DNA of 64,000 nt, taken from the NCBI GenBank assembly GCA_003971905.1, contig RSEE01000019.1:248001-312000 (forward strand). Reading direction: 5' to 3'. The number at the start of each line of letters is the position of its first letter. Position 1 is the stretch's first letter. Source of the DNA: Moniliella sp. 'wahieum'. Its lineage: Eukaryota. Shown here in pieces: positions 12,721 through 51,875 of this stretch. The translations under genes were made by a program, and so were the position numbers. Below the pieces are notes generated by a model. That model made no database searches. It had not been told where the DNA came from and saw nothing but the letters and a program-made list of their open reading frames with translations.

Positions 12721-13480
12721 AGCATGGAGCAGCGCCAGCAGGCAGCCATCGATACGATCCGAGAATTGGGGGCAAAGGGCGCGCGGCGCATGAGCACTGG
12801 TGTGGTTCATTCCTTTCGAACTCGGTGAGACTGTGCCTGCGCCTGGACGTGTGCCTGGCTGGGGCTTGCGCGCGGGGTCGGGCAAGCGGCCATTCGTCTT
12901 GCCTGTGTTTCGATCAGGATTAGGATTTCGATTACGCCTGAGGCCCTGCCTTGCGGCTGCGATCGTTCCTTTGCCATTACAGGCACGCGGCGGGACAATG
13001 TGCAGGCGGCGCGCTGCCCAGCCTGGGCGCTCAGCCTCAGCCTCACGCCCCCGCGGCCGGCGCCGCACAGGGGCAGTGCCTGCAGGCGGGCGGCTCAGAA
13101 GCGCTCACCGCAGGCCTCAGGCTGAGGCCCACGCGTCACGAGCCGAGGGACCGGCGCGGTGGGATGCGCTCGGCATCCCGCACAGCGCCAGTGCTGGCCC
13201 CATCGCAGACAGGCACCCGTGGCGGACGCAGTGCTCTGCAGTGCTGCTGCCGCTGCTGCCGGCAGCGGCGGACGCCGGCGTGCTGCTTGCCGCCCCGCCG
13301 CTCCCTCCGCCCCCCTCCCCACCACCCTCAGCCTCACGCCTCGGCAGCCCCGGCCCCACCCCCGTCCCTTGCCCTGTGCTCAGGTCCAGGCACGCCCCAC
13401 CCACCTCCGCCCTCGCCACGCCCTCGCCTTCCATCTTGTCTCTACCGCCGCCGGCCTCGGCTGCTGACCTCCAGGCGCCC

Positions 13481-15805: not shown

Positions 15806-16733
15806 AATTTTGTTGCGCCGAGGGGGTCGTTGGCTTCTTGGCTCTTGGCTCTATCTTGGTCCCTACCCTCCGCACGAGCTCACTACGCCTCAGCCCTTCA
15901 AGCCATCTCTTTCGCACCATGCGCTTGTGCTCTTGGGGGCCCTCTGTATCTTCCACACACGATGGGGCCACCGAGCACCATATGACCTTAAACTGGCTAC
16001 GCTTTCTCTGCACCCTGTCTAACTAGTTTCTCTGTTTTTTCTTTTCCTTGCTCTACCCCCCCCTCCGCCCTCGGGCCTCAAGCCGCATGATCATCCCCAA
16101 TGGCTAATGACTGGTGACCTCACGTGGTGCCTTTCTGTCCGAGTGGGATGGTGGGAGGGGGCGTAGATGGCGCCCATTCATACCTATACGAACTGCCATG
16201 CTCGTATCGTACCCCATTTGTTTGTTTGTCGAGAAAGAGTCGATAGGGATAGGGTCGCTATTGGCCCGCCGACCGAGCATCCCATGCACCACCCAACGCG
16301 AGTCACTGGTCACCTACGATGGGCTCTATCTCACCAGTGCATCACGCACCTTGCAGCACGGGATAGAGGGAGGGGTAGGGCATGCCGTGACAGCACGGGA
16401 CAGAGGTGCATTCCATTGCAAACCTTTGCTCTCATAGTCCACGAGCAAAGGGACAAAAGAGCAGTACCACAACCCCGCAAAAACGCCCTCGTAGAGCAGT
16501 AAAAGGGAGGACCGGTGCGCAGCGCACGGCCCTTCGCACCAAGAGGCAAGTAGATTGGTATACGGAACAGGTCGTCGGTCGTAGTGCAATATAAAGTAAG
16601 TGGAGAGGTGGGGATGTGGAAGAGAGAACGGAACGGGGGCATGGAGAGCATGCAAAGGAGAGTGGTTGGAGAGCGGTGGGGGGGGGGGGGGGGGACGGAG
16701 AGGAGGAAGGAAGAGGAGAGGAGGAATGCAGGC

Positions 16734-19700
16734 TCATGTTGTAGCCGTCTTATCAAACAACCGACGCACCACATCGAACTTGAGTCGTCTCGAGGCGGGA
16801 GTGGAGCGGAGCGGGCTTTTGGACCCAGAAGCGGAAACCGAAGCGGTAGCAGAGGCGACATTCTGTTCCACTTGCTCGAGCGGCGGGTCGGACTGGGCAT
16901 GAACCCAACGTGTTCGCCCAGCTCGCTCGACGACGCGGCCGCTCAAAGCGGGAGCCGAGCGTTTGGTGCGCAATACTCTCTTCTCTGCCCGGAGACCGAT
17001 GGGCGAGATGGGACGGGGGAGCGATCCAGTCCCTCGACGTGGCTCCTTCGGTTCCCCTGGACCCAACAAGTCCCCCCTCGATGGGTGCAGCGTGTTGGTC
17101 GAGGCAGCGTGGCGTAGGCGCGGTCCTGCGTGCCAGCGCCCGCTTCTGGGGGATAATAGGGGCGGATGTGCGCCCGCCGGACCGGAGAGATGGGCGGAGA
17201 TAAGGCAGCCAAGCCAAAGCTGGCGCCAGCACCAGCAAGATAGGCTGGCCCAGGTTCAAAGACAAGCCCTTTTCGTTCCAAGATTGCCTGGAGGTGGGGC
17301 TGGGCTAAAGAGCCAGCCACGTCTGTGCGTGTTGAGGAAGGGGCGTGCTGCTCTTCCCCCCCCCTGTTGGGGGGAGTGATGTTACGTTGAGTTGCCGCTG
17401 ACTCGGCCGATTCGCCTGACCCTTCGCGCAGCGGAGAACGGACCAAGTGCGGGAAGTCGTGCCGTCCTGCACGGCGTGCACAAGGGGTGTCCGCTCCGCC
17501 TCCTCTGCCTCTGCCTTCCCTCGGCGACGTGCGTATAAGGTGGGAGGAAAAGGTACACTCTCTGTCGCGTTGCGTGTAGGCGAAGGAAGCGCCAATGGCG
17601 TCACCTTCTGTCCACGCGATCCACCGGGGTGCGCGGCCGAAAGCGAGGGGGGCGTGCTTGGCTGGCGGGCCGAGGGCAAGGTCGGGGTTCTAACCTTTTC
17701 CGGAGAGGGGCCATGAGACGGGTAACGAGCATGAGGCGCAACGGGGTCAGGAGCAGAGAGCGCGACGGAGGCCGCCGAGGCAACCAGGCCAGCGGGCATG
17801 GTGGCGGCCGAAGTGGATGGCAAGGCATCGCAAAAGGAATGAGTGCCGGTTTGGTCGCGGTCGCGTTGGCGTTCGCGCGTCATTGCCTGACCGAGGGCAG
17901 CGAGTTGCTGGGCCAAAGTGAGAGTGGTGCCATCGTCGAGCTGGACGGCAAGATTGGGCGCTTGGCCTTCCCCTGCGCCTTGGCCGCGTGCGAGAATGGC
18001 GGCGGCCTGTGCGGCCGCAGGCAATGGGTTGGGTGGGACGACGAGCGAGGTGCTAGTCCGGGATGTAGGTACGGGCGATGAGCGCTTTGCACCTGGGTGG
18101 GACGAGCGCGGAAAAGACAGTGGGGGGGTTGCGGAGGCAGTGGGGGTAGAAGGAGCGGTATCTGACTGGCTCATTTGGGCTGCCCCTGGAGAAGGGAGCA
18201 GGTCGACTGATCTGTCCTTGAGCAAGTCGACTGACCTGTTCCTAACTATGCGGGGCGACGGTTCGCTTGGGTAGCGTGTTTTTAATCCCAAAGACGTACC
18301 CGCCGAGTAAGCGCGGTAAGGCGGGATAGAGAAGTGGGGGCTGGAAGAAGGTGAAGGCATTGAGTTGGGAGCCAATTCTTCCCATTCGTCCCTTGCCCCC
18401 GTGTCATCCGATGCAGTCACCATCCCAGTCCCATGAGACAAGACATTTGCATACCGCTGGGACGAACTGACATTGACTCCGCGCCCAGGCAGGCCAAAGA
18501 GCACCCCCTTCTCACCGGCGCTACCAAATACGTCATCCTTGGTATCATGGCGTTGGGGTCGTGACTCAGGACCTGAGTTGCTGGCATTGCCGCTGACGGA
18601 TGACACGGCCGAAGGAGGACGTGAAGACGTTGGGGTAGGGTAGTCCGACACGCCCGAGTCCTTGAGTGGCGCATCGGGCACAATGGATGCCATGGTTGTA
18701 CTAGGTGAAGTGGGTTGGGGCGGCAGGGGCGGTGCGGCGGCGCGTTTCCGCAACATTCGTTCCGAAATGATTGGAAGTGAGGGGCGCCGCGGACCAGAAA
18801 AACTGGCGGTGCGTACTTGGGGTTGAGGTTGGGAGGGGTTGGGAGCAACAGGAACAAGTGGGGAAGAAGTTGGTTCAATCGAGACGATTCCTTGGCTCGT
18901 CCCCGTTGTGCTTGGAGCCTGAACATCGGGCGGGGCAGCAGGGGCTAGTCGAGGACGTTCTGTGTGGGGACTGGGGGTGGTACGGGGGAAGATGCGTGAG
19001 TGGGGGGAGGTGGGGGAGGGTAAAGAGGGGAATGAGAAGGCGAGATCCGGGGCTTGGGGGGCCGGCAAGGCCGAGGGGCCAGTTAGGTTGGAAGAGTGGT
19101 GCGAACGCAAGTTGACCAGCGAATGCATCTTGGGCAGGCGGCTGACCCTCGGGCCACTCGAGCCGCCGAGCGGCGTCGTGGAACCGCTGTCCTTGCGGTG
19201 GCGGGACAACATAGAGAGGCGGAAGTAGAGACCGCGTCAGCAATCCGCTCAAACGAGCGTGTGGGCATCAGGCGGTAGCGGCGGGCGGTGGGGGAGGGAG
19301 GCCCGCTACCTGGGGGACTGCCTTGAGATGGCATTAGCGATGGCCGTCGCCATGGGTCGCCCAAACTGGACAAATCGGAGCCTGAAGACGACTCGAGGGC
19401 GAGGTGCAAGGCGCTGGACATGGAATGGTTGGCGAGGGATTGTGGGGTGGCCCCATTTTCGTCTGCTGCATCAATGTTGGCGCCCGCCTGCACCAACAGT
19501 TGCACCACCCCGGCATGGCCGTTGGCCACGGCGAGGTGGAGCGGAGTGGCGCCGACGGGACTGTGAGCGGGCGAGAGGGAGGCGCAGCATCGGCCCCGGC
19601 GGGAGAAGAGGAGGAAGAGACGGAGCAAGCAGAGGGCACGCGGGCTGGGGGGCGAGGTAGGCTGGGGGTGGCGCGGTGGGCGAGGAGGAGGGCGACAACA

Positions 19701-19888
19701 GCAATGTGCCCGGCGGCAGCGGCAGCATGAAGTGGCGCCAGGCCATCGGTGACAGTGTCGGGGGAGAGTCCGACCGCAAGGGCGGCACGGACAGCCGGCT
19801 CGTCGCCAGCCAAGGCAGCGGCAACGAGCTGGCGTGGGCGCCAGAGACGACTGCGGGGGGGATGGGGGGCGGGGGTGCCGGGACCCAT
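16734..19888 (-). CDS. Ankyrin-repeat protein with long Ser/Pro-rich disordered tail; frameshifted, 3' end uncertain
   Basis: GLAPLHAAAAAGHIAVVALLL and GATPLHLAVANGHAGVVQLLVQAGANIDAADENGATP ankyrin repeats; 635-aa downstream ORF on the same strand. Confidence 0.75.
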
Positions 19889-20064
19889 GTTGATGCGGAG
19901 CAGTGGGAAAGGGAGAGGCGCGCCCCGGGCGTGGATGAGGCCAAGAGAAGATGGGTGGGACGGCAGTGGGGAGGGGTAATTAATGGTGAACGGACTGGCA
20001 ATGGGGAGCTGCAATGCAAGAAGGCCCATGTGGCTCCGCGTCTTTTGCCGGTGCAGACACGGTG

Positions 20065-20660
20065 TTGATGAATGATTAATGATTGGCCTGGCTCGCCTGA
20101 TCGGCCGGTCGGTCCATGTGCTTGAAGCTTGAAGCTTGAGGGGCTCTCGGATCTCAGCGCCGCTCAGTACTCAGTAAGTACTCAGTCTGAGCGCTGAGTC
20201 TCAGCAGTACGTTCGGTCTGAGTAGCTAGTAATAGCCTAACCGGGCCGGAGCCACAGGTTGAGCTGTGGCGTGGCAAGAATAGGCCCAGGCCCAGAAAGA
20301 ACCCAGGCCAAGGCTGCATAAGGCCTAAGGGCCACAGCACACAGACCCTGGCACAGCCACACTGCTGCTGCTGCTCGTCTGCGTGAGCGTGAGCCATGTG
20401 TGCTGAGTCTGCCGAGTCCCCCGAGTCCGCCGCTTGCCTTTTCGTGCCCCTGCGCATGTCCCCATGAGACTATCGACTATCCCCCATCATGCATATCATG
20501 CATCATGAATCATTCCTCGCCTCCCGACTCTCCGATCTCACACAACGACCACCCTCTTCCCACCACTGCTGCTGTACGACGCACCACACACGAATGCTAC
20601 GCGTCGGGGCAGACGTGGGGTGCGTTAAACGTTAAAAGCTCGTTAAGCGCTAAGCGAGGC
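20065..20660. repeat. Palindromic 7-bp-lattice mosaic upstream of the ankyrin gene
   Basis: tgattaatga, ttgaagcttgaagcttga, tcagtactca, tgagcgctga, taaggcctaa, tcatgcatca, taaacgttaa, taagcgctaa. Confidence 0.8.
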
Positions 20661-31164: not shown

Positions 31165-33708
31165 CTACCTCGCATAGGGGTGCGCTGCACAAGTGCGGGA
31201 GGTAGGTAGGAAGGAATGTGGCGCGGCGCGAGAAACCAACAGATAAATTTGCCTACTGTGGCGACGACCAGGGATCCGCGAATGAACAAGAGAGCCACGC
31301 TTGCCTGAGCGGTAGCTTTCGGGCGGGCGAACAGAGTCGGCCGGGCACGGGGGCAAGGGCACACGAGGCTGGTCTGATCGCGGAGATCCGGGTGGGGGAG
31401 GGGCAAGAGAATAGGAGCCAGCCCATCGCGAGTGGGAACCCGAGGAAGAGGCGGTGCCGTGAGAGGGTGGAACCCACTCGTCGTGTCCAGACATGTGCGT
31501 CGATAATGCAGTGATGGAAGAACGGGAGGCCAGGTAGGCGTCCGTTCGTATCGACTCGGACATGCTCGAAAGACTCAGCGCTGAGCTGGCTCGTGAAGCT
31601 TCCGTTCGCACGGACGCGCCGGGAGCCGAGAGGGGATAACCTTCACTTGGCGGGGGACCCAGGCTAGAAAGGGGTCGACGCCTTTTGTACTCCAGCGTGT
31701 TGGCAAGCATCTCGACTGGGAGAGAGTTGCGCGCAGCAGACAAGCGTCGAGGTGGGGTATATTCCGCTGGACTAGGGAGGTCCCGGGTGAACGGAAGTTC
31801 GGGTGGAGGTAGCCCGATCGCGGTGGGCGCCCAACTGTGGCGGTGTAGAGCGAGATGAGAAAGCCCTCTAGGCAACTTATCGGGTTGGCTCCGATCCTGA
31901 GTCGGTGGCTCTTGTTTGCTTGATGTATCATCGCCTACGCCCTCATTGGCCGCCGCCGCCACCCCCTCCTCGCTGACTTCCCCCTCCTTGGCATGAACGT
32001 CGACCTCCTTCTCCTTGGGGTGGATCTCAGCTGATGTGTCAATGCTAGCACGGCTTTCCGAGTTCGATTCCACACGGAACTCTCGGCGGCGTTTGCGCCC
32101 AGCACAACCCTAGAAGAAGTGGAAAGAGAGAGTCAGACGCAAGCCGCAAACTGTGGATGAACAAACGTACTTTGACGAGGATATGTCGGTTGAGCGCGTC
32201 TTTTCGAGAAAAAGGCTTGTGGCACTCGGGGCAAGCAAACGGTTTGGTCCTCAAGTGAATTCGACAGTGCCTTCGCAAGTCGTGATTTCGTACAAATGCA
32301 GCACACCGCACGAGGTACACTTGAACGGCCGCGGCGGCCCGGGAGTTGGGGCGGTAGGCTGAGCATGTGGGGGCAGCCGAGGCGGTGGTGGGCCAGCTGG
32401 GGAAGGAATGACCCCCGGGGTAAATTAGGGTAGTTGCTAGCCCACTCGGCATGGGCGGCAGCTGACCCGGGGTGCTGGTGTGACAACTGATGAGGTCCGG
32501 GCAGAGCCGTAAGTTCGTACACAGGAGGTCCACAATGGGCGGAATGGCGAGACTCCAAGGATGGGGGGTGAGCTTGTTGTGGGAAAGACGAACTGTGGGG
32601 CTCAGGTTCGGGCCAGCGCATCAGAGGATGTGAGGGCGTTTCAAAAGTGTGCGATGGCAGGCGAGTCGGATAGGCATGAATAGAGGAGAGGGGAGGCGAG
32701 GTCCGAGCGGGAACAAGAGGGGAATGGGCAACAGGGATGAGATGGCCATGTGGCAGCAGACGATGGGGGGGCACGCCATGCATCTGGAGTGGGGCCAGAA
32801 AGAGAGGAGCGAACATGTCGATTCGCATGTGAGTTGCGGCCGGTGGAGGCAAGTGGGGGTGCATAGGCGGGAGTGTAGCTGTTGGCATATGACATTCGCC
32901 GTTGAGGGCCGATGGAGGGGACAAAGGGATAGTGGCCATCATCGCCGCCTTCATCAGTGTGTGCAGATGAGGGTGACAGGCGAGCCGAGGGAACGGGTCT
33001 AGGGCGGACGGGGGCGGACAGAGGAGGGAGACGGGACAAAGAATCGCTCGAATCACCGTACGCAGTGCTGTGCCTCCGGGGCGGCAAGGGAGGCAAGCGT
33101 CCGGAGGGCACGCCCGAAGATCCAGAAATGCTTGAGCGCGGGCTGGGGTTGGAAGTCAAGTCGGCGTGGGGAGTGTGGCGCTTGAGAGAAGACGGACGCG
33201 AGGGGCGAGCAGAGAAGGTATAGGTTCCGAGGCCGCCGGAAGATTGTTCGGGGCTGTGCGCATGAGACGAGCGAGACGCGTGGTCGGCAAAGCCAAAACC
33301 CTGGGCCAACGAGGGCAGACTACGATGAGGAGGCTCAGAAGGGTAGGTGTCGCGGGTGAGACGGGGAAGAGGGGCATCAGGGTGTGGGATGGGATGGGAA
33401 GAGACGGAGGCAGGGGCCGGATCGGGGAGGGAATTTTGAGCTTGACGTTGAGCTGGTGCTGGAGGGACCGAAGGCGAGGTAGAGCCAGAGCCAGAGCCAG
33501 AACCAGAGCCGGCTGGCGAGAGGGACGGCGCGCGGGGGTTGGGAACCGAGGGTGCGCAGGGACAGGTGGGCCAGCATCGCCAGGCATTGGGACTGAAGTG
33601 TGCGAGGGGGGATGAGAGAAGGTGGTGGTGTCCGGCTGCGATGGGAGACGGGCTGAAGCTAGGGCTCCAGGCTCTTCTGGGGGGAGTGGGGGGTACGTGG
33701 TCATGCAT
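31165..33708 (-). CDS. Two-finger C2H2 transcription factor, FlbC-like; intron 32110-32170, frameshifts
   Basis: FVRNHDLRRHCRIHLRTKPFACPECHKPFSRKDALNRHILVK|GC joined across a 61-nt GTACGT..CTGAC..TAG intron; matches the FlbC-type finger pair as I recall it. Confidence 0.8.
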
Positions 33709-33889
33709 CCTGGGCAATCTGTTGTGCTGGGTCCAGGTTGTTCCTGCAGAGAGACACGCGGATTTGAGAAAGCCAGCAGGGGGACCCACACGCACCAGCC
33801 TAGTGTCGGCGAAAAACGATGGCCTTTTATTCTCCGCTGATTTTAGCATGTAAAACGCGCGGCAGCATCGGCTGCGAGCGTGGGTGCGC

Positions 33890-34010
33890 TGGCCAGACAG
33901 CCTGACAGCCGCAGCCAGACAAGGCCAGACAAGGCCAGACAAGACACAGACAAGGCCAGACAGCCCGACAGTTCGACAGCCCGACAGCCCGACAGCCAGA
34001 CAGCCAGGTC
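33890..34010. repeat. Degenerate (C/G)AGACA(G/A)-type tandem repeat in the FlbC-like promoter
   Basis: ccagacaagg x3, cccgacag x3, ccagacag. Confidence 0.75.
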
Positions 34011-34276
34011 CGCGCAAAACCAGGGCGTAGCCCAAACGAGATCCTATCACCCGCCAGCTGGTTCCCATGCTCTATCTCCGGTGGCCATCGCTCATATCAC
34101 ACGGTACTCAGCACTCGGCAGCACCAGCACGCGTAGGATCCGCGGTACACGTCACACGCATCACGCTGGAAGCTACCTTCGCCCGCCACAAGCTTTCGGA
34201 TGCACCCGACGCCACGAAGCAACCGTCTCAAAATTCCTGACAGAGACCGGTATTGTTTGGGCTGTAGCAGCTGTAG

Positions 34277-34327
34277 CAGGACCCCGGACATCACCCATTG
34301 CTCATCGGTGGAGGCACGTCCCGTTCG
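34277..34327 (+). repeat. Left terminal inverted repeat
   Basis: caggaccccggacatcacccattgctcatcggtggaggcacgtcccgttcg. Confidence 0.95.
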
Positions 34328-34779
34328 TCAGGCCGATTTCACCCTTTTTGCACCCACCTCGAGGGTGCAAACGAACGGGATGTGCCGATTTTGGCCGATT
34401 TTGGCCCAAATTTGCCCCCTTGAACGGATGAGCCTATCAGTAGGGTTAGAATTACATAAGACACTTGCCCCGTGCCGCACTTGCTTACGCAAGCACAAGA
34501 AATTGTTAGGGTTCGGCTGGGGTGTCCCATCACGTCGCGTCGGGTGGTGCTGACTTAAGCGTGTTTTGGCCGCAACCATGTCTGCCTTTGCCTGCCTCTT
34601 CCCACGACGCGCCGAGCTCGAGAGCACTTCCAACGCGTCCCCCATGCTTCGCCCGTGCAGCAGCGCAAGTGCTTTGCCTGCCTCCAAAGGTGCAACCATC
34701 CTGGCCACACGTGTTGGCGACAAGGCGTCGGATACAGTCCACTCTTTGTCAGAGACGCGCACGGCCCTGATCACTTGGT

Positions 34780-37129
34780 GATTGGCGTTTTCCAACCGTC
34801 TGTCTTTCCCCCCATTACGATCAAGGTCGCTACTCTTGGAGGGAGTCGCTTGTCATGATGCAGGACGCGAAGCACGCTATAAAGACCGCCCGCGACCAGC
34901 TCACAAGCGGTGCTCGTTGCCTGGTTCTCGGGAGATACGCTGTCGGTTATGGGGACTTGGTCGCCCTCAATGACAAAGGGGCGCTTTACAATCGCGACAT
35001 ATTTCGATTGGACAAACAAGACGATCGAGCTGCAGCCCGCCTCTTCTCGGCCTCCACGCTAGCGGCGGTGGGCGACGCAGACGACCTGAACCGTGGCCTA
35101 TTCGTGTACCTCTATGTGATCGGCCTCGTTCAGTCGGCTATCCAGCACCGATCGCTTCCCCATTCCACGCGAGCGTACATGCTGCTCACTGCGTACTACT
35201 TTTCCATCTATGGGCGAACTTCATATCCTCCGACTCGCAGTACACGGCGGTCAATTTGGTCAGTCCGGGGATGCTCGACATCTTCAACCGCCTCATCACC
35301 GGGATGCTCGGCCTGATGTTGATTTACAGGGACGATTACAATAGCCGAATTCCCTTCACCCCTTGGACTCATTCGACCGAGACGTTAGAACACCACTTTG
35401 CTTCAGCGCGCCGACTCTTATCGGAGTTTGATGCTGTCGAGTACCAGCAGGTACGTCCCCCCCCCTGGCCCTCTGTCCCCCCTCCTTTCTAATGCTGTCG
35501 TCTTCCTGCAAACTGAAATCTGACTTATCCAGATCATGTCGAAAATTCATGGCCTCGCGCTCCACACGGTCGACATGGAGATTATGGTCTGAGTCATAGG
35601 ATGGACAAATATCCTGCTTCTGGCTACAACCACACCGTCTTTGACACTGCCGGGGTATGTCTCGATATTCTCAAGACATTTCCATCGGCGATCAATATGG
35701 AGCACATTTGTGCCGACGCCGCCAATGCGGCACTGTTCTGGCATCATGGGTGGGAATGGGACTGACTCCTCATTCGGATCCTCAACCTGCACCAGCTGCA
35801 CCTGTTCCCCTTCTCGAAGATGATGAGCCTTCCATCGTCCCCAACCACGACACTGTCTATGCCGCGATGCAACACTTTGTGGACCATTCTCAAGAGCCCT
35901 TCTCTCCCTGGGGAGAGGGCGATGCGGTACCCGCGACGTCTGACCCAGGTCCCGTATCCGCCCACGATGGCACGGTGGATGAGGGAGATGAGGTGGTCTC
36001 CAAAACCAGGCTGCGACTGATGGCGTTGGTGGAGGCTCGAGAGCAATGCCTGTATGTTTATCTCACCCATATAGTACGCGACGACGGCCGCGATTCTAAC
36101 AAACTCTGCAGCGAGAATTCTTCTGAGGTCAATGTTGACGCCGCTATCCAAGCCTCCCGCATGCGCATATCCAGCCTCCTGAGCCCGGCCTCAAGCATGT
36201 CCCCTGTTATGGCTGTATCCAACCCGCCCGATTGGACTCCAGTACGAACCTTGACCGAAAGCTCTTTCTCTCCTTCAGGACGAAGGTTGAAGACAGCTTA
36301 AGCTCCCAGGCGGGGAAGAAATGGAATACTGCGGGTGATTGCGGTTTGGGCAAGACGTGTTCTGCCCTAAATGGATTGCACAAAAATGCGGAGGCGGCGT
36401 TGTACAGCAGTGTGCTGAAGGAGCTTCAAGATGGGCCTGGCGCTGTCATTTATTCGGGGCCGGCCCGCAGGCTGCGATGGATGGGACAATCGAGACTCGA
36501 GCCCGTGACGGCTAACCAACAGGAGCGCCACGATCTTGTCGAGGAGGGTCGGGCGAAGAAGGCCAACGAGAAGCGGGTCAAGGCACTTTTCAACGTGGTA
36601 AAGAGGGTCAGCTTGTTGCCTTTGGACATTGCCAAGGGTGGTGTTTGCCGATCACCCCCCTCACCATAGGGGATCTGGTCGTCTTCCTGTCCCTCGACAA
36701 AACAGAGGTGACACCCACCGTTCAGATCGGCCATGGCAAGTCCATAACACTCACCATTTGTTCTTATTGCTGCTAACATTCGTATTCGAAGTGGTGAGCA
36801 TGTACACACAGGCGTCGAAAACTGTACCCCACAGCTGGGTGAACAATTGGTCGAACTTATCTACGCTCTCGTACATCTCGCTTCGCTGCCTGAAAGAAGG
36901 GACCCAGCCCACGTACACGTCCAACATGAAGTGGTCACTCAACACGAGGCGTTACTACCATGTGCCAGCTTTTCAGGTCCTGCGACGTTTACCAGGCGAG
37001 CATGTCTTCAAGCAGGCCAAGAGCGACGATTATACTGATTACACTGTGCAGCTTTCTCCCCAGGCAGCCGCGATGTTCGCCATGGTGGAGAAGGAGCACT
37101 TTCTCACTCCCTTGCTGGTGGGGAAGTAG
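34780..37129 (+). pseudogene. Transposase, apparently 5'-deleted, with introns (e.g. 35451-35533) and frameshifts
   Basis: MMQDAKHAIKTARDQL (DxxH..K..R), DKQDDRAAARLFS, PWTHSTETLEHHFASAR (LE..F...R), ASGYNHT; N-terminal part appears absent. Confidence 0.7.
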
Positions 37130-37593
37130 TCGCAGAGAATACCAATGGCTTTACATGCAGTGCCGCCTGCTATATAGAAGCACCTGTTGCGTATCAATCA
37201 GAGCAGGAGCTTGGAATTTGGAGATGAAGTCTGGAGGGTGGGCCCACCTCTCAGGTTGAGGGCGTAGGTAGGGTTCCTGCGTAGGTTAATTACCAAAGTT
37301 GGTACTAGCCAGTGGATGCTATTTGCTATCGTCACTGCATGTTGCGCGAGGTTGCGCGCTACTGCGTTTCGAATATTTCATGTTGTGCCGCTTTGTAGCC
37401 TGTGCCACCCCAGGCCGCCGGTTGAAACTTTGGCAAAAAAATTACCTAAGATCCGGATTTTGGGGATTCATCTACCATTTTGCACCCCTGAACGGGATGT
37501 GCCACCCTTTTTGCCCATTTTAGCCCCTAAATTTTGCACCCCCAACGGGATGTGCCGGCACTTTTTTGGCCCTGCGGGCCCAAATTTGCACCC

Positions 37594-37644
37594 CGAACGG
37601 GACGTGCCTCCACCGATGAGCAATGGGTGATGTCCGGGGTCCTG
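37594..37644 (-). repeat. Right terminal inverted repeat
   Basis: cgaacgggacgtgcctccaccgatgagcaatgggtgatgtccggggtcctg. Confidence 0.95.
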
Positions 37645-38355
37645 CTGTAGCCTGCTGTAGCAGGTCGTAGCAGGAGCACTATGTACATCCCGTGTACATC
37701 CCGTGTAGATGGTGCCCTGTGGTGCCATCGGGTCTATGACCTATGGGCCGGCCTGGGTCCGGCCGGCCTCCGGGGCCACATAATAGTTCACGGTGAATCG
37801 GAGGCCACCGGTTACCTTGACCAGTCTGCATGGCACCATCGTGGCTGCAGCGCCCGGAGTAGCAGCCCGTAAACAGCCCGGAACACGTTCACACGTTCAC
37901 ACGTTCACAAGAACGTTCCCTGTTCTATGCCCCTCGCCACAATCCCCTGGCACACATCGGTGTGCGTCTAAGGACAGCCCACCACATAACCGCTAAGTTG
38001 CGAAGTCTTTGTAGCTCCCCTCGTGCAGTGCAACACACCATCAACTGCCTGCTCTCTTGTCTTCTACCGCTCAGGCGGAAGCTAATGGGCGAACAGTTCG
38101 ACCCGGCCCTTTACAAGTGCACCGAAGACGCGCTGGAACGTGAAGCTCTTGTACTTGAAGATGTGCCTGGAGCTTGGAGCTTTGGGCTTAGCGGCACGTG
38201 ACAGAGGGAATCATTTCATTTCTTTTGTTAGTGCCAGTTGCAGTGCTGCCAGTGTCCTACCCAACCTTTCAAAAGTTTCGTTCCCGCTTGCGCTTCCGTG
38301 CCCAAACACCGCGTCGCTTGCCGTCCGCGTCGCCTTAGATTGCGAGCTCACCATC

Positions 38356-41300
38356 ATGGCCCCGGGTGCACGCAGCTTTCCGTCCTGGGCCCGATGGCGC
38401 CATCCAGGTCCGCACTGTCGGCGCTCGCCGCGGTGGGGGCAGGGTGGAGGTGCGCCAAGCCGCGGGCGTGGGCGTGGGCGTGGTGGCGGCGCGTCTCCCG
38501 CAACCGCCGCCGGCACCCCCACTGTCTGGCCTGATGTGCCTGCGCCTGTGATTGACCCTGACCAGGAGGCTCCAACGCTGCCCCAGCTACACCAGTGGTG
38601 GCTCCACCATCTTCAAGCTCGAGCTGACGAGTCCTACAATACCTTTGGCCACTCGTCTAGCTACGGTAGGGCCAAGTCCACCCTGCAGAACCACGTCAAG
38701 GTGTGGAAGAAACACGCCGACTATGATCGCATCCTCGCCACCCCTGACGCGTGTGGCGCCAAGATGAAGAATGTCCCAGATGGTTATGGCCCACTTCATG
38801 CTGAACAGCTGATCCGCCTTAGTAATTTTGGCGAAAAGACTGTGGGCGAAATGGAAGCGGTTACCAGCGAGGGTATATCTCCAACGACTGGGACCCGCCC
38901 CCTTCCTCGGGCTTGGCAAAGTCTGGCACACGTGGATCTTATTCAGGGCGAAAGCGAGTTATTGAACAGCCTCTAGACCCGAACTCCTCCCCACCCCAGC
39001 AGCCTCCCCGCCAGGGTAGCTCCCACACACGCTGCCGCGGGCAAAAAGCGCAAACCCCAACATACCGAAATCGAGGACGCGGCCCAGGACCTAGGCAAGG
39101 AATCGACTCGCAAGAAGCGCAAGTCGACAAAAGCTTACATCCCAACGCTTGGTTCCGGGGGGTACGGGATTATGCTTGCTCTTTGGTCTCACACGGCTGA
39201 CGCTGAGCGCTTCGGCACGGCCGCGTTGGTGGGCGAGGGTGCTGGTGCTGCCCTCCTCAACGATGATGATGAGACGGACGAAGAAATGGGAGAAGGAGAT
39301 GAGGTGATGCTTACCAAGAATGAGATCATTGCTGATGGTCAACGTTGGTGCACCGCTGACTATGTGTTGGGAAGCACGGGTGCCGCAGGCGATGCTGAGG
39401 TCGCTGGCCGCATGGGCCGGAGGAACGGTCGAGTTGCTTTTGCCAATGGGGGGCAGTTCACTTTCACTCCTTGGAATAACATTAACACCCTCAAAGAGAA
39501 CGAGTATGTGTACGAGATCCGGTCTCGACCTGCCAAATATTGTCTCACCGCCGAGGGCATGGTTGTCGCCCGTGCTTTGGCCCAGCATGCCAAACTGCGG
39601 AGGATTAACGAGCGCAAGCAGATGGAAGCGGAAGAGGCAGCCCAGCGAGCAGCCCAAGAGAAGGAGGCTGCGAAGGAGGCAGCCAAGGAGGCCGCTAAGC
39701 GAGAACGTCTTGCCAACCGGAAAGGTCCAACTAGGCGAAAGGAAAAGGGTATGAGGCCAATTGGGGACATCAACGATTCTTCCTCAGACGACGGTCTGGC
39801 GTTAGAACCCCCACCTACGCTGAGCATGGCCCAGCACCGACCACGATCATTCTTGCCTGAAGATGACTCACCCCCCACCCCCTCGTCCTGAGCCCAGCTT
39901 CCGCCCGACTCGGGCACCTTCTCGATCCCACTTGTCCTCTTCCCCCCCTGTAACCCCCGCTGCTCCCCATGAAGCAGTAAGGCCATTGGTTGCACCACTC
40001 ACAGGTAGGGAGGAAGCTGCAACTACCGCGTTTCCCTACACCTATCTTTCTCGCACCGGTGCCGAAACGTTGGAGAGGGCGGGGGCGCTTACGCGTCTGC
40101 GTGATTCCGACTACACCCCCATCTTCTTGATTCGCTTCCCTGTAAATCTTAAGGCTCAACTCGTTTCCTCTGGTATCATCGAGGCGCCACACATTGACCC
40201 TTCCTCTCCTGACTTTGTACGGGCTTGGATCACTCGCGACTCATCCCTCCCTATCGCCTCTGGATTAGAAGGGTGCCCTCGTCGCGCCTCCGCACCTTCT
40301 GCCTCTGCCACCATCGACCTCCTCTCCGACTCGGATGAGGAGCCTTCCCCTCTTCCCCAATTGGAACGACCAGGAAAGCACCGTCTACCGCGCCCGCCTG
40401 CCAGGCAGGAGCGAGTCAGATCTCAGACAGCAACGGCAATGCCACCGCACCTGGGCGCGCATCAAAAGCGACTCTTGTTCTTCCGCCCCAGCTCAGGCGT
40501 GCGCCACCAACGAATGTGACTATTGAGCTAGACGATTCGGATGAATCAGACGAGTCGCATATTCTGCAAGGTGCATCCGCTGTGCCCGCGCGGCCGGCAC
40601 CCCACACTTTTGGATCAACCTTTCGTCTTGTCTCTCCTCCTTCTGGGAGCAGCAGGGGTCCCACAACCGAGCCCGAAGATTTCCCTCCTGCCGAATCTGA
40701 CAGGCGCGACTCGCAATCCCAAGCACTTACCATTGCGGCGGGGAGGCTTCTCAGTCGCAGTTGCAGTCGCAATCCCAGTCCCAGCGCCCTAAGGCCTAAG
40801 CGTGTTGCGCGGCCCATACCTGGGACGGAATGACGATTCCCAAGGTACCACCTTACCGATGGAAACACAAGCCACAACACTTCCCCCACGTCAGAAGATG
40901 GTGGAAGCACGAAGCGTCGCCCACAGACCTATCGTGCCCCTCGAAAAGCGTGCACGGTTATCCAACATTGTCCCCCCCCCCGCAATCGGAATGAGCTGGC
41001 ACAACGCGCTGGTACCTCGAGGGGAAGCAGCGTTGGCTGACCAGGGTGGCTCTAGTCGCACGCGGACTGACTGTGCTCCTGTCGAAGGGGGTGGTCCACA
41101 AGCCTACCGCCCACCGAGTTTGAGCCAATCGTATGGCCCAAAGGCTCATTTGATGTGTTCTTGGTCATGGACCATCGCGAGGTACTGGTCAAAGGCGCCA
41201 GTGCGGACCAGGCCCGTGCTGCCGGTGGGCCAACTGACTTTGAAACAGCGTTGCGGGAACGGCATGGTGTGGCCACGCTCAGCCGTGCCCTGAGCCTGGG

Positions 41301-49177: not shown

Positions 49178-51498
49178 TTAGCGGGTCGAGATGACGGCCA
49201 CGTCCCAGCTTTGCACCTGGTGCGACACCGGGTCTGGTGCAAAGAGATCAAGAACGGGCAGCAGGACAGCACGGGAATCCACCATGGACTGCACCTTCTC
49301 CCAGTCGGTCCGTGTCGGGACAAGCACACGCACCTCGCTCCACTTCTTATCGGAGGTAAGGCGTGCCAGGCTTGTGGGCGAGCTAAGGCGCACCAACTCC
49401 ATACGATAATGAGAGACAGTGTGGCCACCATAAGTGCCCCGCACATCGTGCCATGCGTAACCGTCTTCCATCCCGGTTGACACATCAGCCTGGACCTTGG
49501 GAGGCTCATCGTCATCACTTTCATCCGGGTGGGCAGCCTTACTGGCGGCTTGAACACGTTCCACAAGGTCAGGGTTGGGTACGCCCGTATGAGCGAGCAC
49601 CTGCCATTCGATCCGGGCATTCGAGGGAGCGCCGTTGATGGAAGGACTGCGTAGAGGATGGGAGGCGATAGATCCCCGCGTTGAGTTTGGCCCATCCAAG
49701 AGGCATGCCAAGCATCTGCAGCTACTTGCTCTGGATCGGGCTCCTCTTCATCCGATGTGGTGGCCATGTGACCCCAGACCGCTTGAGCCGCCTCGGCCAA
49801 GGCGCGGGCCGAAGCATACTCATTTTGAGGCAAAGACGACGTAAGTGCGTCCTCCGAAAGGCGAGTCTGGGAAACAGGCTCGCCCTCCTGGTTGGTGATC
49901 CAAGCAATGCCGCCCTGCACAAAGTGTTGGTTCCCCCCTCCGGTGGGCTAAGGGGGCAGCCGTCAAGTCAACTAGGGCGGCGCGCAGGATGCGACGCACA
50001 TGTTGCAGTGCCAACACAGCTTGTCCTCCCGCCCCAGTGGGCACGACCATGGTTGCGGGCACCAAGGCAATTTGCCCAGCAATTGAAACTGCACCCGAGG
50101 CCGATACCACGGCCTGGGCGTACGGGCCGATGTTGGCTGGGGCCCAGTAGGAGCGGGACTGGACATGCAAGGCAGAGCGAGCATGTCGGTGGTCCTTTTT
50201 GCTTCCTCCATCGACTCGGCCCGTTAATGTCATCATAAGCCCTGCCTCGGTTGTGGAGGACGACGACGGAGGGCAATGCACGCCCGTGATGCCGGAGCAA
50301 CGCCAAATTGTTTGCCATACTCAGCGTTGAGGGATGCAAAATGGCTTTGGGACGAAAGGTAGACATTGACATGGTCAATCGCAATGATCTCCTTCGACTT
50401 CCCACCATGCTCGGGGGATTGAGGGGGGATGGGGACCATAGTTAGACCATGTTGGTGCAGAGCAGTCATGACTTGCTGAAAGGCGGCTTGGGCGGCTTGT
50501 GCCATGTCGTCCGCGTGACGGCTAACCACTGTGATGGTGCAGCAGCCCTCGTCCAGAGTCATCCTTGGCTTAGATGAGGTGGAGGACCAAGGAAGCATAT
50601 GAGCCGAAGGGTAATGTGGGGGAGGGGTAGAAGAGCTGGGAGGGAGACACAGAGACACTGCGGTGCTCAATTGGTCAAGGAGCGCAGGGCGCGGAATCGT
50701 CCCTTCTCCAAGCACTTTCCGTGCCATCGCAGCCTTCGAGGCGTCCTTGGGTACCAAGTAAGCCTCTCGCGCCGCGAGATAAGCCACATCGGCAATTCCT
50801 CCTGTATCCGTGTGCATGACGACCTTCGTTTCGCCCAGGTGGACTCTGCCTTTGATGTGCAATGGCGAATCAAGCGTCAAAGTCTCATACTCTCCCCCCT
50901 CTCCGGCAACGTGGGCACCGTACTGGCGTGCGAGCATATCCAGTTTAGGTCGGAGCATCCCCAGTGACTTGCCCAGGTCGCGCACACCCAGACCAGCACC
51001 AGCGACCTTGATCAAGACAGCGTCCAAGCCCGCGGCCACCATCTCGTTTACCAGTGTCGCTTGCGGCCGCTTCCACAGATACGCCAACACAGACAGTTTC
51101 AACCTTGAACAAACGTGTTCTACGCGCACCCGTTGGTAATTGGACTCTATCGCCCCCACGCTCACTGCATCGGCATCGGGGTGGTGAGCAAGAACTGTGC
51201 GGAGCAGACGCGCCAAATCCTCCGTCTCGTCCCCCTGGTCCCCTCCGGCATATTGAGCACCGGTATCGCGAGCTGTGCCGTCAATATGACCGCGATATAG
51301 TGGCAGGTCCATAGCGGCAGCAACCACATGGACCGCATCGTGTCCGGCCGTCTGATACATCCACGAGTCCATCTCGCCCGACTGGCCCTCGGGGGGAGCA
51401 AGGGTCGCAAGGCCAACAATTTCGTGTCCAGCAGCAACACAGTGCATCAGGTTGAAGCACGAGTCCTTCCCCCCGGACAACAGGCCGATGATCTTCAT
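49178..51498 (-). CDS. DPH6: Diphthine-ammonia ligase with C-terminal RidA/YjgF domains; frameshifts
   Basis: MKIIGLLSGGKDS, DSWMYQT, SNYQRVRVE, GEGGEYETL, LHVQSRSYWAPANIGPYAQ. Confidence 0.95.
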
Positions 51499-51875
51499 GT
51501 TGCTCGAGATGCCGTGTTGACGTGGATGGAGATGGGGTGAGTGGTAGTGGTAACCCATGCCGTAGTAGTCAGGGCAACGAAAATTCCGCAAATAAATGCC
51601 CCTACATTTGAAACGTTCAGCAGACGTCAGGCTCAAGCGCTGGCCAATCCTTCCTACCGCCGAGAACCTTGGAGGTCGTTCATCTTCCACGGGTAGCCCT
51701 TCCATCTTTACCATGGTGTTCGCACCGGCCATGGCCCAATACGACACAGTCGAATAAAAGTACAGATAATCCAGAGCACGACGTTTATAAACACACAACA
51801 GCCTCAATCTAGTGCCCGCCCTCTGGGCGTTTTTCGATTAATTGCAGGGGAGTGTGGGTTAGTGGACAAAAAATT

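What the first reader, a model, noticed from the sequence alone, without database searches (positions are those of the whole stretch)
34271..37650. Terminally intact P-element-like transposon in a basidiomycete, with unusual TSD
Seen: perfect 51-bp TIRs, a flanking duplication and a transposase with QDAKHAIKTAR and STETLEHHFASAR motifs. Established: DxxH..K..R(N) and LExxFxxxR are hallmarks of P-element/THAP9 transposases, which have CA..TG termini and 7-8-bp TSDs and are rarely reported in fungi. With CAGG..CCTG termini the TSD is 6 bp (CTGTAG); 8 bp (GCTGTAGC, AGG..CCT termini), 4 bp or 2 bp also fit this one copy because the site is partly palindromic. Inference: this defines the ends of an element family whose proteins are usually annotated as hypothetical, possibly a distinct fungal P-like lineage. 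Perfect TIRs suggest recent mobility.
Basis: partly seen in the sequence, partly recalled or inferred. Interest (0 to 1): 0.75.

Follow-up and report, generated by a model that had tools for sequence, protein, structure and literature searches.

The report
Gutted P-type jumping gene, ends intact
This is a defective copy of a fungal "cut-and-paste" jumping gene related to the fruit-fly P element: its ends are perfect, but about 60% of its enzyme gene is missing, so it could move only with help from a complete copy elsewhere.

Summary
The perfect 51-bp terminal inverted repeats (34277-34327 / 37594-37644) and both protein motifs are real. The "transposase" is only a remnant. A profile of 50 full-length relatives (1689 positions) matches the element only at positions 999-1666. 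The N-terminal ~59%, with the first two catalytic aspartates, is absent, and the rest has at least two -1 frameshifts. This is a non-autonomous deletion derivative.

The P-like call holds at family level. An AlphaFold model of a relative has Drosophila P transposase as its best PDB match (E 1.6e-9, TM 0.56-0.59; Hermes hAT 8.7e-4, TM 0.19). D, D, DxxH and E sit on the expected secondary-structure elements around an all-helical insertion domain. The Pfam P-element HTH model passes its cutoff in 2 of 48 relatives.

Full-length relatives are 1,000-2,100 aa. They carry an N-terminal Ulp1/SENP protease domain and no THAP domain. All 96 named ones come from mushroom-forming fungi, and none is annotated as a transposase.

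The "unusual 6-bp TSD" is not established. A canonical 8-bp GCTGTAGC fits equally well, and the site lies in a local array of that octamer. Other copies, Repbase and Dfam could not be searched.

The parts
34277..34327 (+). Left terminal inverted repeat, 51 bp, perfect (begins CAGG; begins AGG at 34278 if the TSD is 8 bp)
37594..37644 (-). Right terminal inverted repeat, 51 bp, perfect reverse complement of the left one (ends CCTG)
34270..34277 (.). Left candidate target-site duplication: GCTGTAGC (8-bp model) or CTGTAG at 34271-34276 (6-bp model). A further GCTGTAGC lies at 34261-34268.
37644..37651 (.). Right candidate target-site duplication: GCTGTAGC (8-bp model) or CTGTAG at 37645-37650 (6-bp model). 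A further GCTGTAGC lies at 37654-37661 and the variant GTCGTAGC at 37664-37671.
34313..34386 (.). Left subterminal motifs GAACGGGAYGTGCC: 34313-34326 on the - strand (inside the TIR) and 34373-34386 on the + strand. Together they form a local 16-nt inverted repeat (34313-34328 / 34371-34386). Candidate transposase-binding sites (inference).
   Evidence: (I3, D3)
37477..37608 (+). Right subterminal array: 2.5 copies of a 52-bp unit carrying GAACGGGAYGTGCC at 37490, 37543 (1 mismatch) and 37595. The last copy lies inside the TIR.
   Evidence: (D2, D3)
34328..34845 (+). 5' internal region with no detectable match to the family protein. The internal deletion junction lies at or just before about 34846.
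34846..35202 (+). ORF remnant in frame 1, family profile positions 999-1119. It carries the DxxHxxKxxR motif (QDAKHAIKTAR). The family-invariant N481 and D563 are changed to D and S.
35202..35452 (+). ORF remnant in frame 3 after a -1 frameshift at 35202, profile positions 1120-1204. It carries the catalytic-E motif (TLEHHFASAR).
35453..35532 (+). Probable 80-nt intron (GTACGT...CAG). Reading resumes in frame 1 at 35533 with IMSKIHGLAL..., which parallels the relatives' sequence.
   Evidence: reading of the sequence against P0001/P0002; inference
35533..35732 (+). ORF remnant: frame 1 runs to TGA at 35590. A second frameshift follows, and frame 3 at 35607-35732 matches profile positions 1224-1265 (GYNHT motif). 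Frame 3 stops at 35763-35765.
36406..37129 (+). C-terminal ORF remnant: weak match at 36406-36591 (frame 1, profile 1470-1528, E 0.012), clear match at 36779-37096 (frame 2, profile 1564-1666, E 5.6e-13), stop codon at 37127-37129.
37130..37593 (+). 3' non-coding internal region up to the right TIR

Best explanation
The element at 34277-37644 (3,368 bp) is a non-autonomous, internally deleted copy of a large DNA transposon of the P-element/THAP9 kind. Complete members of its family encode one protein of roughly 1,500-2,100 aa. From N to C this protein has a Ulp1/SENP-type cysteine protease domain, a Cys-rich region, a P-type helix-turn-helix, and an RNase H-like DDE core split by an all-helical insertion domain, followed by a C-terminal region. 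This copy keeps both ends: 51-bp perfect TIRs plus five subterminal GAACGGGAYGTGCC motifs. It keeps only the part of the ORF from the DxxH motif onward, and that part is frameshifted. It lacks the protease domain, the DNA-binding parts and the first two catalytic aspartates, so it cannot make an active enzyme.

It inserted by cut-and-paste into a near-palindromic GCTGTAGC site in an intergenic region. It could be excised or moved again only by a full-length transposase supplied in trans from another copy. That enzyme would recognise the subterminal motifs and TIRs.

Shown: the TIRs, the motifs, the extent of the deletion, the frameshifts, and the P-like fold and signature of the family. Inferred: mobilisation in trans, the role of the subterminal repeats as binding sites, a TSD of 8 bp, and a full-length element size of about 6.5-7.5 kb.
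For: Ends: 51-53 bp perfect inverted repeat, present only at these two places in the window. Five of the 6 window matches to the subterminal motif lie in the element, against 1.17 expected, and 0 of 100 shuffles reach 6.

Remnant: phmmer of the 181-aa frame-1 piece against 1.84 billion representative proteins gives 482 hits at E<=1e-3 and 286 at E<=1e-10, best 1.3e-25. Many hits are 1,400-2,000 aa with the match near residues 1050-1300. tblastn with 13 of these covers only their C-terminal parts. The A1 profile matches only positions 999-1666 of 1689. The frameshift at 35202 is exact: profile position 1119 ends in frame 1 and position 1120 begins in frame 3 at the same base. Of the 10 family-invariant columns that the remnant covers, 8 are kept and 2 are changed.

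Superfamily: AF2 model of P0055 with the 50-sequence alignment, pLDDT 78, pTM 0.71. Foldseek against the PDB puts 6pe2_A (E 1.6e-9, TMt 0.56) and 6p5a_A (E 3.1e-9, TMt 0.59) first; both are Drosophila P transposase. Next come Hermes (8.7e-4, TMt 0.19) and Transib (5.1e-3, TMt 0.30). D313/D314 (49/50 and 47/50 conserved) lie on strand 308-316. D420 (49/50) follows strand 414-419. D471xxH474 (49/50, 50/50) follows strand 464-470. Helices 499-642 form the insertion, and E648 lies on helix 645-657. This is the layout that PMC8230255 gives for the P signature (passages read). PF12017 (P-element HTH) scores above its cutoff in 2 of 48 relatives and at E<=0.11 in 7 of 48, always about 230 aa upstream of DxxH. 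It is also precomputed in 1 of 97 relatives. The ESM Atlas nearest clusters carry PF21787/PF21788/PF21789/PF12017, with scores of 0.81-0.89, so this is a lead only.

Transposon family, not a host gene: several distinct paralogues occur per genome, for example 3 in Mycena metata and 4 in M. capillaripes.
Against: No sequence-level link to P transposase was found. The window fragments hit no Pfam family. The Pfam TNP-like RNase H and GBD models (PF21787-9) hit 0 of 48 relatives at E<=1 (32 proteins) or E<=0.01 (16 proteins). PDB sequence searches with the family profile and with two PF12017-positive relatives find no P transposase. No THAP domain was found in 0 of 48.

The spacings differ from Drosophila P: D1-D2 is 107 vs 73, D2-DxxH is 51 vs 36, and DxxH-E is 177 vs 192. 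Kolobok has no solved structure, so a Kolobok-like protein could also take P as its best PDB neighbour. TMq is only 0.28-0.29 because the query is twice the target length.

Only one copy is available. The TSD length, the existence of a full-length partner in this genome, and mobility itself are therefore untested. GTP binding was not tested.
Confidence: 0.8

Rival explanations
1. One reading: a complete, possibly still autonomous P-like transposon whose transposase can be reconstructed from this copy, and which makes an unusual 6-bp TSD (CAGG..CCTG termini) that marks a distinct lineage.
For: Perfect TIRs. CTGTAG flanks both ends directly, and CA..TG-type termini are usual for P elements (the terminal rule is recalled, not tested). 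The DxxH and LExxF motifs are present.
Against: Profile positions 1-998 of 1689 have no counterpart in the element. tblastn with 13 relatives finds only C-terminal parts. There are two -1 frameshifts and premature stops. The 6-bp reading is not better than the 8-bp one: GCTGTAGC with AGG..CCT termini gives the same empty site, and 8 bp is the P-element value (PMC7776569, passages read).
Confidence: 0.05
2. The family belongs to another DxxH-bearing cut-and-paste superfamily (Kolobok, hAT, Transib-like or KDZ) and only resembles P because P is the nearest solved structure.
For: No Pfam TNP-like RNase H or GBD hit in 0 of 48 relatives. No sequence hit to P transposase in the PDB. No THAP domain. 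Kolobok has neither a solved structure nor a Pfam model according to PMC5751038 (passages read). That paper calls Kolobok ubiquitous at low copy in fungi. CAGG termini with a possible 8-bp TSD would also suit hAT (recalled).
Against: hAT (Hermes) and Transib structures score far worse than P: E 8.7e-4 and 5.1e-3 against 1.6e-9, TMt 0.19 and 0.30 against 0.56-0.59. No hAT dimerisation, KDZ or CACTA Pfam family appears in any of the 48 scans. The P-specific HTH model PF12017 passes its cutoff in 2 of 48 and recurs at the same relative position in 7 of 48. The flanks are GCTGTAGC and not TTAA, which is the Kolobok TSD as I recall it.
Confidence: 0.1
3. The flanking direct repeat is not a target-site duplication. 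The element sits in a pre-existing host mini-repeat of GCTGTAGC(A/CT) units, and its true ends or TSD differ from both models.
For: Two octamers lie on each side, plus the variant GTCGTAGC, and they form 9-10-bp tandem units. The left junction 10-mer CTGTAGCAGG recurs at 37655-37664 in the right flank.
Against: All 4 exact octamers in 64 kb abut the element, so the array is not a general host repeat. The octamer count itself is not significant: 12 of 100 shuffles reach 4 or more. Removing the element plus one octamer leaves a coherent array, as expected for a true TSD. The spacers between octamers (A, CT, AG) equal the element's own terminal nucleotides under the 8-bp model, which fits excision footprints at a re-used site (my reading; post hoc).
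Confidence: 0.15

Closest known systems
Drosophila P element and its internally deleted non-autonomous derivatives (P superfamily; DmTNP structures 6P5A/6PE2; vertebrate THAP9)
   Same: The family protein's best structural match is DmTNP. It has the same order of HTH, split RNase H core, all-helical insertion domain and C-terminal domain. D, D, [C/D]xxH and E lie on the same secondary-structure elements. The element has long TIRs with internal subterminal repeats. An 8-bp TSD is possible at a near-palindromic site. Like most P copies in flies, this copy is an internal-deletion derivative that keeps its ends (the fly comparison is recalled).
   Different: No THAP domain; a Cys-rich region stands in its place. 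PMC7776569 states that THAP is absent from fungi. An N-terminal Ulp1/SENP protease domain roughly doubles the protein to 1,500-2,100 aa. The TIR is 51 bp against 31 bp. The termini are (C)AGG and not CATG (the CATG is recalled). The Pfam TNP-like core models do not detect it (0 of 48). GTP dependence and the 17-nt staggered cut were not tested. The deletion here removes the N-terminus, so this copy cannot encode a KP-type DNA-binding repressor (inference).
Fungal P-superfamily entries in RepBase (Pucciniales and Allomyces, 17 entries according to Muszewska et al. 2017, PMC5751038)
   Same: P-type transposons in fungi, including basidiomycete rusts (passages read).
   Different: That survey used PF12017 and PF12596 and found only 11 P copies with a domain across the fungal genomes it analysed, described as 'single occurrences'. 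The family here has 482 representative clusters at E<=1e-3, and its 96 named full-length members all come from Agaricomycetes genera. It mostly escapes those Pfam models. I could not search RepBase or Dfam, so identity with an existing entry is not excluded.
Transposons that captured a Ulp1/C48 protease domain (plant MULE and CACTA elements)
   Same: The transposon protein carries a Peptidase_C48 domain. In this family the H, D, Q and C catalytic positions are conserved in the consensus and align to yeast Ulp1 (1EUV, E 5.8e-15). Two papers that mention such plant elements appeared in a search listing only (PMC2528002, PMC4948706). The plant examples themselves are recalled.
   Different: Here the protease is fused in one ORF to a P-type core, not a Mutator or CACTA core, and the hosts are fungi. 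The window copy has lost this domain entirely.
KDZ (Kyakuja-Dileera-Zisupton) and Plavaka transposons of basidiomycetes
   Same: Large, Cys-rich transposase proteins that are abundant in Agaricomycetes and often annotated as hypothetical. Zisupton makes 8-bp TSDs (PMC12730594, passages read).
   Different: None of the 48 Pfam scans lists a KDZ or CACTA-type family. The fold search points to P.

Membership tests
P superfamily (P element / THAP9-like DNA transposons) | RNase H-like DDE core with the P signature: D on strand 1, D at the end of strand 4, [C/D]xxH right after strand 5, E on helix 4 (tested in full-length relatives) | tested here: met
   D313/D314, D420, D471xxH474 and E648 are conserved in 49/50, 47/50, 49/50, 49/50, 50/50 and 37/50 sequences. 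They lie on or after strands 308-316, 414-419 and 464-470 and on helix 645-657 of the AF2 model. The reference layout comes from PMC8230255.
P superfamily (P element / THAP9-like DNA transposons) | The same catalytic triad present in the window's own copy | tested here: not met
   Only DxxH (34858-34869 region) and the E motif remain. Profile positions 1-998, which include both aspartates, have no match in the element. The copy is a member by descent and not a functional one.
P superfamily (P element / THAP9-like DNA transposons) | Overall fold closest to a solved P transposase | tested here: met
   Foldseek: 6pe2_A E 1.6e-9, TMt 0.56; 6p5a_A E 3.1e-9, TMt 0.59. The next superfamily is hAT Hermes at 8.7e-4, TMt 0.19.
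P superfamily (P element / THAP9-like DNA transposons) | Helical insertion domain between strand 5 and helix 4 | tested here: met
   Residues 499-642 of the model are entirely helical at pLDDT about 90. [quoted passage not shown] The DxxH-to-E distance is 177 aa against 192 in DmTNP.
P superfamily (P element / THAP9-like DNA transposons) | GTP binding by the insertion domain and the 17-nt staggered cleavage | not testable with these tools
   No residue-level structural alignment and no biochemical assay were available.
P superfamily (P element / THAP9-like DNA transposons) | Pfam P-element HTH (PF12017) upstream of the core | tested here: inconclusive
   Above the 23-bit cutoff in 2 of 48 relatives (P0056 25.9, P0145 23.8). 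E<=0.11 in 7 of 48, always at the same relative position. Precomputed in 1 of 97.
P superfamily (P element / THAP9-like DNA transposons) | Sequence match to the Pfam TNP-like RNaseH_N / GBD / RNaseH_C models (PF21787-9) or to DmTNP itself | tested here: not met
   0 of 48 relatives and 0 of 7 window fragments. No P transposase appeared in PDB sequence searches with A1, P0056 or P0346.
P superfamily (P element / THAP9-like DNA transposons) | N-terminal THAP zinc-finger DNA-binding domain | tested here: not met
   No THAP hit in 0 of 48. Conserved Cys at positions 91, 166, 182 and 185 suggest a different zinc module. PMC7776569 says THAP is restricted to animals.
P superfamily (P element / THAP9-like DNA transposons) | 8-bp (7-8 bp) target-site duplication | tested here: inconclusive
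   GCTGTAGC (8 bp) flanks AGG..CCT termini. CTGTAG (6 bp), 4 bp and 2 bp fit equally because the site is near-palindromic. There is only one copy.
hAT superfamily | hAT dimerisation domain and a Hermes-like fold | tested here: not met
   No hAT Pfam family in the 48 scans. Hermes TMt 0.17-0.25 and E>=8.7e-4.
Kolobok superfamily | TTAA target-site duplication (recalled) and a Kolobok transposase profile | tested here: inconclusive
   The flanks are GCTGTAGC and not TTAA. No Kolobok profile or structure was available, so the protein comparison was not made.
KDZ (Kyakuja-Dileera-Zisupton) | KDZ transposase domain | tested here: not met
   No KDZ family listed for any of the 48 relatives or the 7 window fragments. 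That Pfam holds a KDZ model is recalled.
Ulp1/SENP (peptidase C48) domain, in full-length relatives only | C48 fold with the His, Asp, Gln and Cys catalytic positions | tested here: met
   PF02902 scores above its cutoff in 19 of 48 scanned relatives and is precomputed in 59 of 97. The A1 profile hits yeast Ulp1 1EUV at E 5.8e-15, with HW, D, Q and C aligned. The window copy lacks this domain.

The most novel reading that the evidence does not exclude
The element is the first copy with defined ends of an unclassified, widespread basidiomycete branch of the P superfamily. Its transposase has swapped the animal THAP domain for a Cys-rich module and is fused to an apparently active Ulp1/SENP desumoylase. 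This suggests transposition coupled to SUMO removal from chromatin or repair factors. In addition, the five GCTGTAGC-type octamers around this copy are separated by 1-2 nt that equal the element's own terminal bases. They may record repeated insertion and excision at one palindromic hot spot, with P-type footprints that retain transposon-end nucleotides.
Probability: 0.25. Interest if true: 0.6.

Novelty: new variant of a known kind. Interest (0 to 1): 0.4.

Why it matters
P-type transposons are regarded as rare in fungi. RepBase listed them only for rusts and Allomyces, and a Pfam-based survey found 11 copies with a P-element domain (PMC5751038).

The family behind this copy is large: 482 representative clusters. 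All 96 named full-length members come from mushroom-forming fungi. It is invisible to the usual P-element Pfam models and is annotated as 'hypothetical' or 'ubiquitin-like protease' protein. Genome annotations of Agaricomycetes therefore probably count transposon genes as host genes and undercount this superfamily.

The TIR and subterminal motifs defined here give a handle for finding complete and non-autonomous copies. The fusion of a Ulp1 protease to a P-type core raises a testable question: what does a SUMO protease do for a cut-and-paste transposase?

The particular copy in the window is an ordinary dead-end derivative.

Tried and rejected
1. Pfam on 7 window ORF fragments: no relevant family, only a chance-level DUF5546 hit at E 0.014.

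2. Other copies in the window: none by blastn, tblastn or the TIR probe.

3. Other copies elsewhere: the only open DNA collection holds prokaryotic genomes. A 22-nt TIR probe found 0 loci. Genome-wide TIR copies, empty sites, RepBase and Dfam therefore stayed unchecked.

Names came instead from the search for homologous proteins.

5. PDB sequence searches with the family profile and with two PF12017-positive relatives: only Ulp1/SENP proteases or noise, no transposase.

6. A Pfam scan of the whole alignment exceeded the size limit. It was replaced by 32 named members, so 48 of the 50 aligned sequences were scanned together.

7. Yuan & Wessler 2011 (the signature strings, including Kolobok) is not held. 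The P signature was taken second-hand from PMC8230255.

8. Literature searches for a fungal Ulp1-P fusion or for P elements in Agaricomycetes found no description. Subscription journals and RepBase Reports are not covered.

9. A third frameshift near 35735 was considered. No tool result fixes the frame after 35732, because frame-2 matches appear only from 36782. I report it as uncertain; a short intron there is also possible.

10. Long-read homopolymer errors were considered as the source of the -1 frameshifts. I judged this unlikely, because neighbouring host genes keep long open exons (534-aa and 643-aa ORFs). It was not formally tested.

11. No complex prediction was run, because no protein-protein binding claim is made.

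Full report
**1. What is in the sequence**

The region holds a 3,368-bp element (34277-37644) bounded by a perfect inverted repeat.
- The repeat finder reports arms 34270-34327 and 37594-37651, 58 nt at 97%.
- blastn reports 53 nt at 100%.
- A 32-nt TIR probe occurs exactly twice in the window, once per strand, and never in 100 shuffles.
- No other part of the 64-kb window resembles the element at DNA or protein level.

Inside each end lie copies of GAACGGGAYGTGCC:
- On the left: one on the minus strand inside the TIR (34313) and one on the plus strand (34373).
- On the right: three on the plus strand at 52-bp spacing (37490, 37543, 37595).
- These are 5 of the 6 window matches, against 1.17 expected; 0 of 100 shuffles reach 6.
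- The right-hand copies belong to a 2.5-copy, 52-bp tandem array.

**2. The coding content is a remnant, not a transposase gene**

None of the seven ORF pieces hits a relevant Pfam family.

phmmer of the 181-aa frame-1 piece against 1.84 billion representative proteins gives 482 hits at E<=1e-3 and 286 at E<=1e-10, best 1.3e-25 at 51% identity. Many hits are 1,400-2,000 aa long, with the match near residues 1050-1300. tblastn of 13 such proteins against the window aligns only their C-terminal parts, for example 1185-1452 of the 1934-aa P0002.

I built a profile from 50 relatives of at least 900 aa (alignment A1; 1689 profile positions) and ran it against a six-frame translation of the element:

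| Profile positions | Window coordinates | Frame | Note |
|---|---|---|---|
| 999-1119 | 34846-35202 | 1 | |
| 1120-1204 | 35202-35456 | 3 | |
| 1224-1265 | 35607-35732 | 3 | |
| 1470-1528 | 36406-36591 | 1 | weak, E 0.012 |
| 1564-1666 | 36779-37096 | 2 | |

Nothing matches positions 1-998, so about 59% of the ORF is missing.

The remaining part is damaged:
- The switch at 35202 is an exact -1 frameshift.
- After a probable 80-nt intron (35453-35532), reading resumes in frame 1, meets TGA at 35590, and homology continues in frame 3 from 35607. This is a second frameshift.
- Frame 3 then stops at 35763-35765. The frame beyond that point is not fixed by any tool result.
- The ORF's own stop is at 37127-37129.
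- Of the ten family-invariant columns that the remnant covers, two are changed (N481 to D, D563 to S).

**3. What the family is**

Conserved blocks in A1 are LSCDDTKL, SYACDGTEVER, QDSKHALKTxRNN and CEHxFGxxR.

An AlphaFold2 model of the 982-aa relative P0055, built with A1, has mean pLDDT 78 and pTM 0.71. Foldseek against the PDB gives:

| Target | E-value | TM (target-normalised) |
|---|---|---|
| 6pe2_A, Drosophila P transposase | 1.6e-9 | 0.56 |
| 6p5a_A, Drosophila P transposase | 3.1e-9 | 0.59 |
| Hermes (hAT) | 8.7e-4 | 0.19 |
| Transib | 5.1e-3 | 0.30 |
| RAG1 | 2.8e-2 or worse | 0.23-0.32 |

In the model the conserved residues sit as follows:
- D313/D314 lie on strand 308-316.
- D420 follows strand 414-419.
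- D471xxH474 follows strand 464-470.
- Residues 499-642 are all-helical.
- E648 lies on helix 645-657.

This is the arrangement described for the P signature: D230, D303, D339xxH and E531, with an insertion domain at 339-528 (PMC8230255, passages read). It also fits the 'almost entirely alpha-helical' GTP-binding insertion domain (PMC7776569, passages read).

The Pfam P-element HTH model PF12017 passes its cutoff in 2 of 48 scanned relatives and reaches E<=0.11 in 7 of 48, always about 230 aa before DxxH. The ESM Atlas neighbours of P0055 carry PF21787/8/9 and PF12017, at scores of 0.81-0.89, so they are a lead only.

Against membership at sequence level:
- PF21787-9 hit 0 of 48 relatives.
- THAP hits 0 of 48.
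- Three PDB sequence searches find no P transposase.

**4. An extra domain**

Peptidase_C48 (Ulp1) scores above its cutoff in 19 of the 48 scanned relatives, all among the 36 that are at least 1,300 aa long. It is precomputed in 59 of 97 full-length relatives. The A1 profile hits yeast Ulp1 (1EUV) at E 5.8e-15, with the HW, D, Q and C positions aligned. Conserved cysteines (C91, C166, C182, C185 of P0055) lie between the protease domain and the HTH.

**5. Distribution**

A search with the core of P0016 returned 97 proteins of 1,031-2,127 aa.
- 96 carry names. All are from genera that I recognise as Agaricomycetes, including Mycena, Schizophyllum, Trametes, Peniophora, Coniophora, Thelephora and Ceratobasidium. 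Only Ceratobasidium was looked up.
- They are named 'hypothetical protein' or 'ubiquitin-like protease family' protein, never transposase.
- Several genomes hold several paralogues.

The window's host is a basidiomycete. Every named hit among the 120 best to its diphthine-ammonia ligase exon is from Basidiomycota. No named species exceeds 49% identity over the full alignment, and the top named hits are Ustilaginomycotina. Two unnamed records reach 69-74%. The subphylum is therefore unresolved.

**6. Ends and target site**

With CAGG..CCTG termini the flanking repeat is CTGTAG. With AGG..CCT termini it is GCTGTAGC. Both give the same empty site, and the near-palindrome (GCTnnAGC) makes 4 bp and 2 bp fit as well. 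One copy cannot decide between them. P transposase integrates with an 8-bp stagger (PMC7776569), so I take 8 bp as the default.

The site is unusual:
- All four exact GCTGTAGC octamers in the window abut the element, two on each side. The count alone is not significant, since 12 of 100 shuffles reach 4.
- The variant GTCGTAGC follows on the right.
- The spacers between the octamers (A, CT, AG) equal the element's own terminal nucleotides under the 8-bp model.

This could be a host mini-repeat, or footprints of earlier insertion and excision at a hot spot. The second reading is post hoc and untested.

**7. How it most likely works**

A full-length family member elsewhere would supply a protein that binds the subterminal motifs and TIRs, pairs the ends, cuts with its DDE site and reinserts the element, duplicating about 8 bp. 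This copy supplies only the cis sites. Its perfect TIRs beside a decayed ORF fit a lineage that is maintained by mobilisation in trans, but no second copy was available to date it.

The element lies in an intergenic region about 440 bp upstream of an ORF (38086-) that runs into a MUS81-like gene.

**8. Comparison and novelty**

The element works like a P element and its family passes the structural tests for the P superfamily. It fails the sequence-model tests and lacks THAP. Kolobok could not be compared, because neither a structure nor a profile was available. hAT and KDZ were tested and not met.

Fungal P elements are listed in RepBase only for Pucciniales and Allomyces, and a Pfam-based survey found 11 copies (PMC5751038, passages read). 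Six literature searches found no description of a Ulp1-P fusion or of P elements in Agaricomycetes. RepBase, Dfam and the source genome could not be searched.

I rate the family as a new variant of a known kind, and the copy itself as an ordinary defective derivative.

Noticed in passing
window 34261-34277 and 37644-37671: All four exact GCTGTAGC octamers in the 64-kb window abut the element, two on each side, and the variant GTCGTAGC follows on the right. The spacers between them (A; CT; AG) equal the element's own terminal nucleotides under the 8-bp TSD model. They could be excision footprints at a re-used palindromic site, or a host mini-repeat.
   Followed up: partly
window 33892-34007: Tandem array of about 13.6 copies of GCCAGACA (also readable as 10- or 21-bp units), about 270 bp upstream of the element. 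It lies in a strongly G-over-C-skewed stretch (GC skew 0.29 for 32001-34000).
   Followed up: no
window 38086-39891 (+): Two adjacent long open frames. The second carries a MUS81-like winged-helix domain (PF21136, E 4.2e-6). The element's right end lies about 440 bp upstream of the first frame, in a promoter-proximal position (inference).
   Followed up: partly
window 50233-51837 (-): The host diphthine-ammonia ligase (DPH6) exon is at most 49% identical over the full alignment to any named species. The top named hits are Ustilaginomycotina and Malassezia; Agaricomycetes reach 41-45%. Two unnamed database proteins are 69-74% identical. The host therefore belongs to a poorly sampled basidiomycete lineage.
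   Followed up: partly
relatives P0066, P0349, P0307, P0346: Some family proteins carry unrelated extra domains or names: a methionyl-tRNA synthetase piece at the C-terminus of P0066, the name 'MARS2_3' for P0349, PF05033 in P0307 and PF03935 in P0346. These are most likely gene-model fusions with neighbouring genes and show how these transposon ORFs contaminate annotations.
   Followed up: no
one search hit list: Many shorter database relatives (about 200-800 aa) start only 60-130 residues before the DxxH motif, close to where the window copy's homology begins. These may be gene-model fragments, or similar 5'-deleted copies may be common in other genomes.
   Followed up: no
window 12001-20000: GC content is 62-65% with long overlapping open frames in several frames and on both strands (for example 12794-16022 on + and 16331-20170 on -). 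The two largest have no Pfam hit.
   Followed up: no
window 34384-34406 and 37682-37707: Small perfect tandem repeats: GCCGATTTTG x2.3 inside the left end of the element, and TGTACATCCCG x2.4 about 40 bp outside its right end.
   Followed up: no
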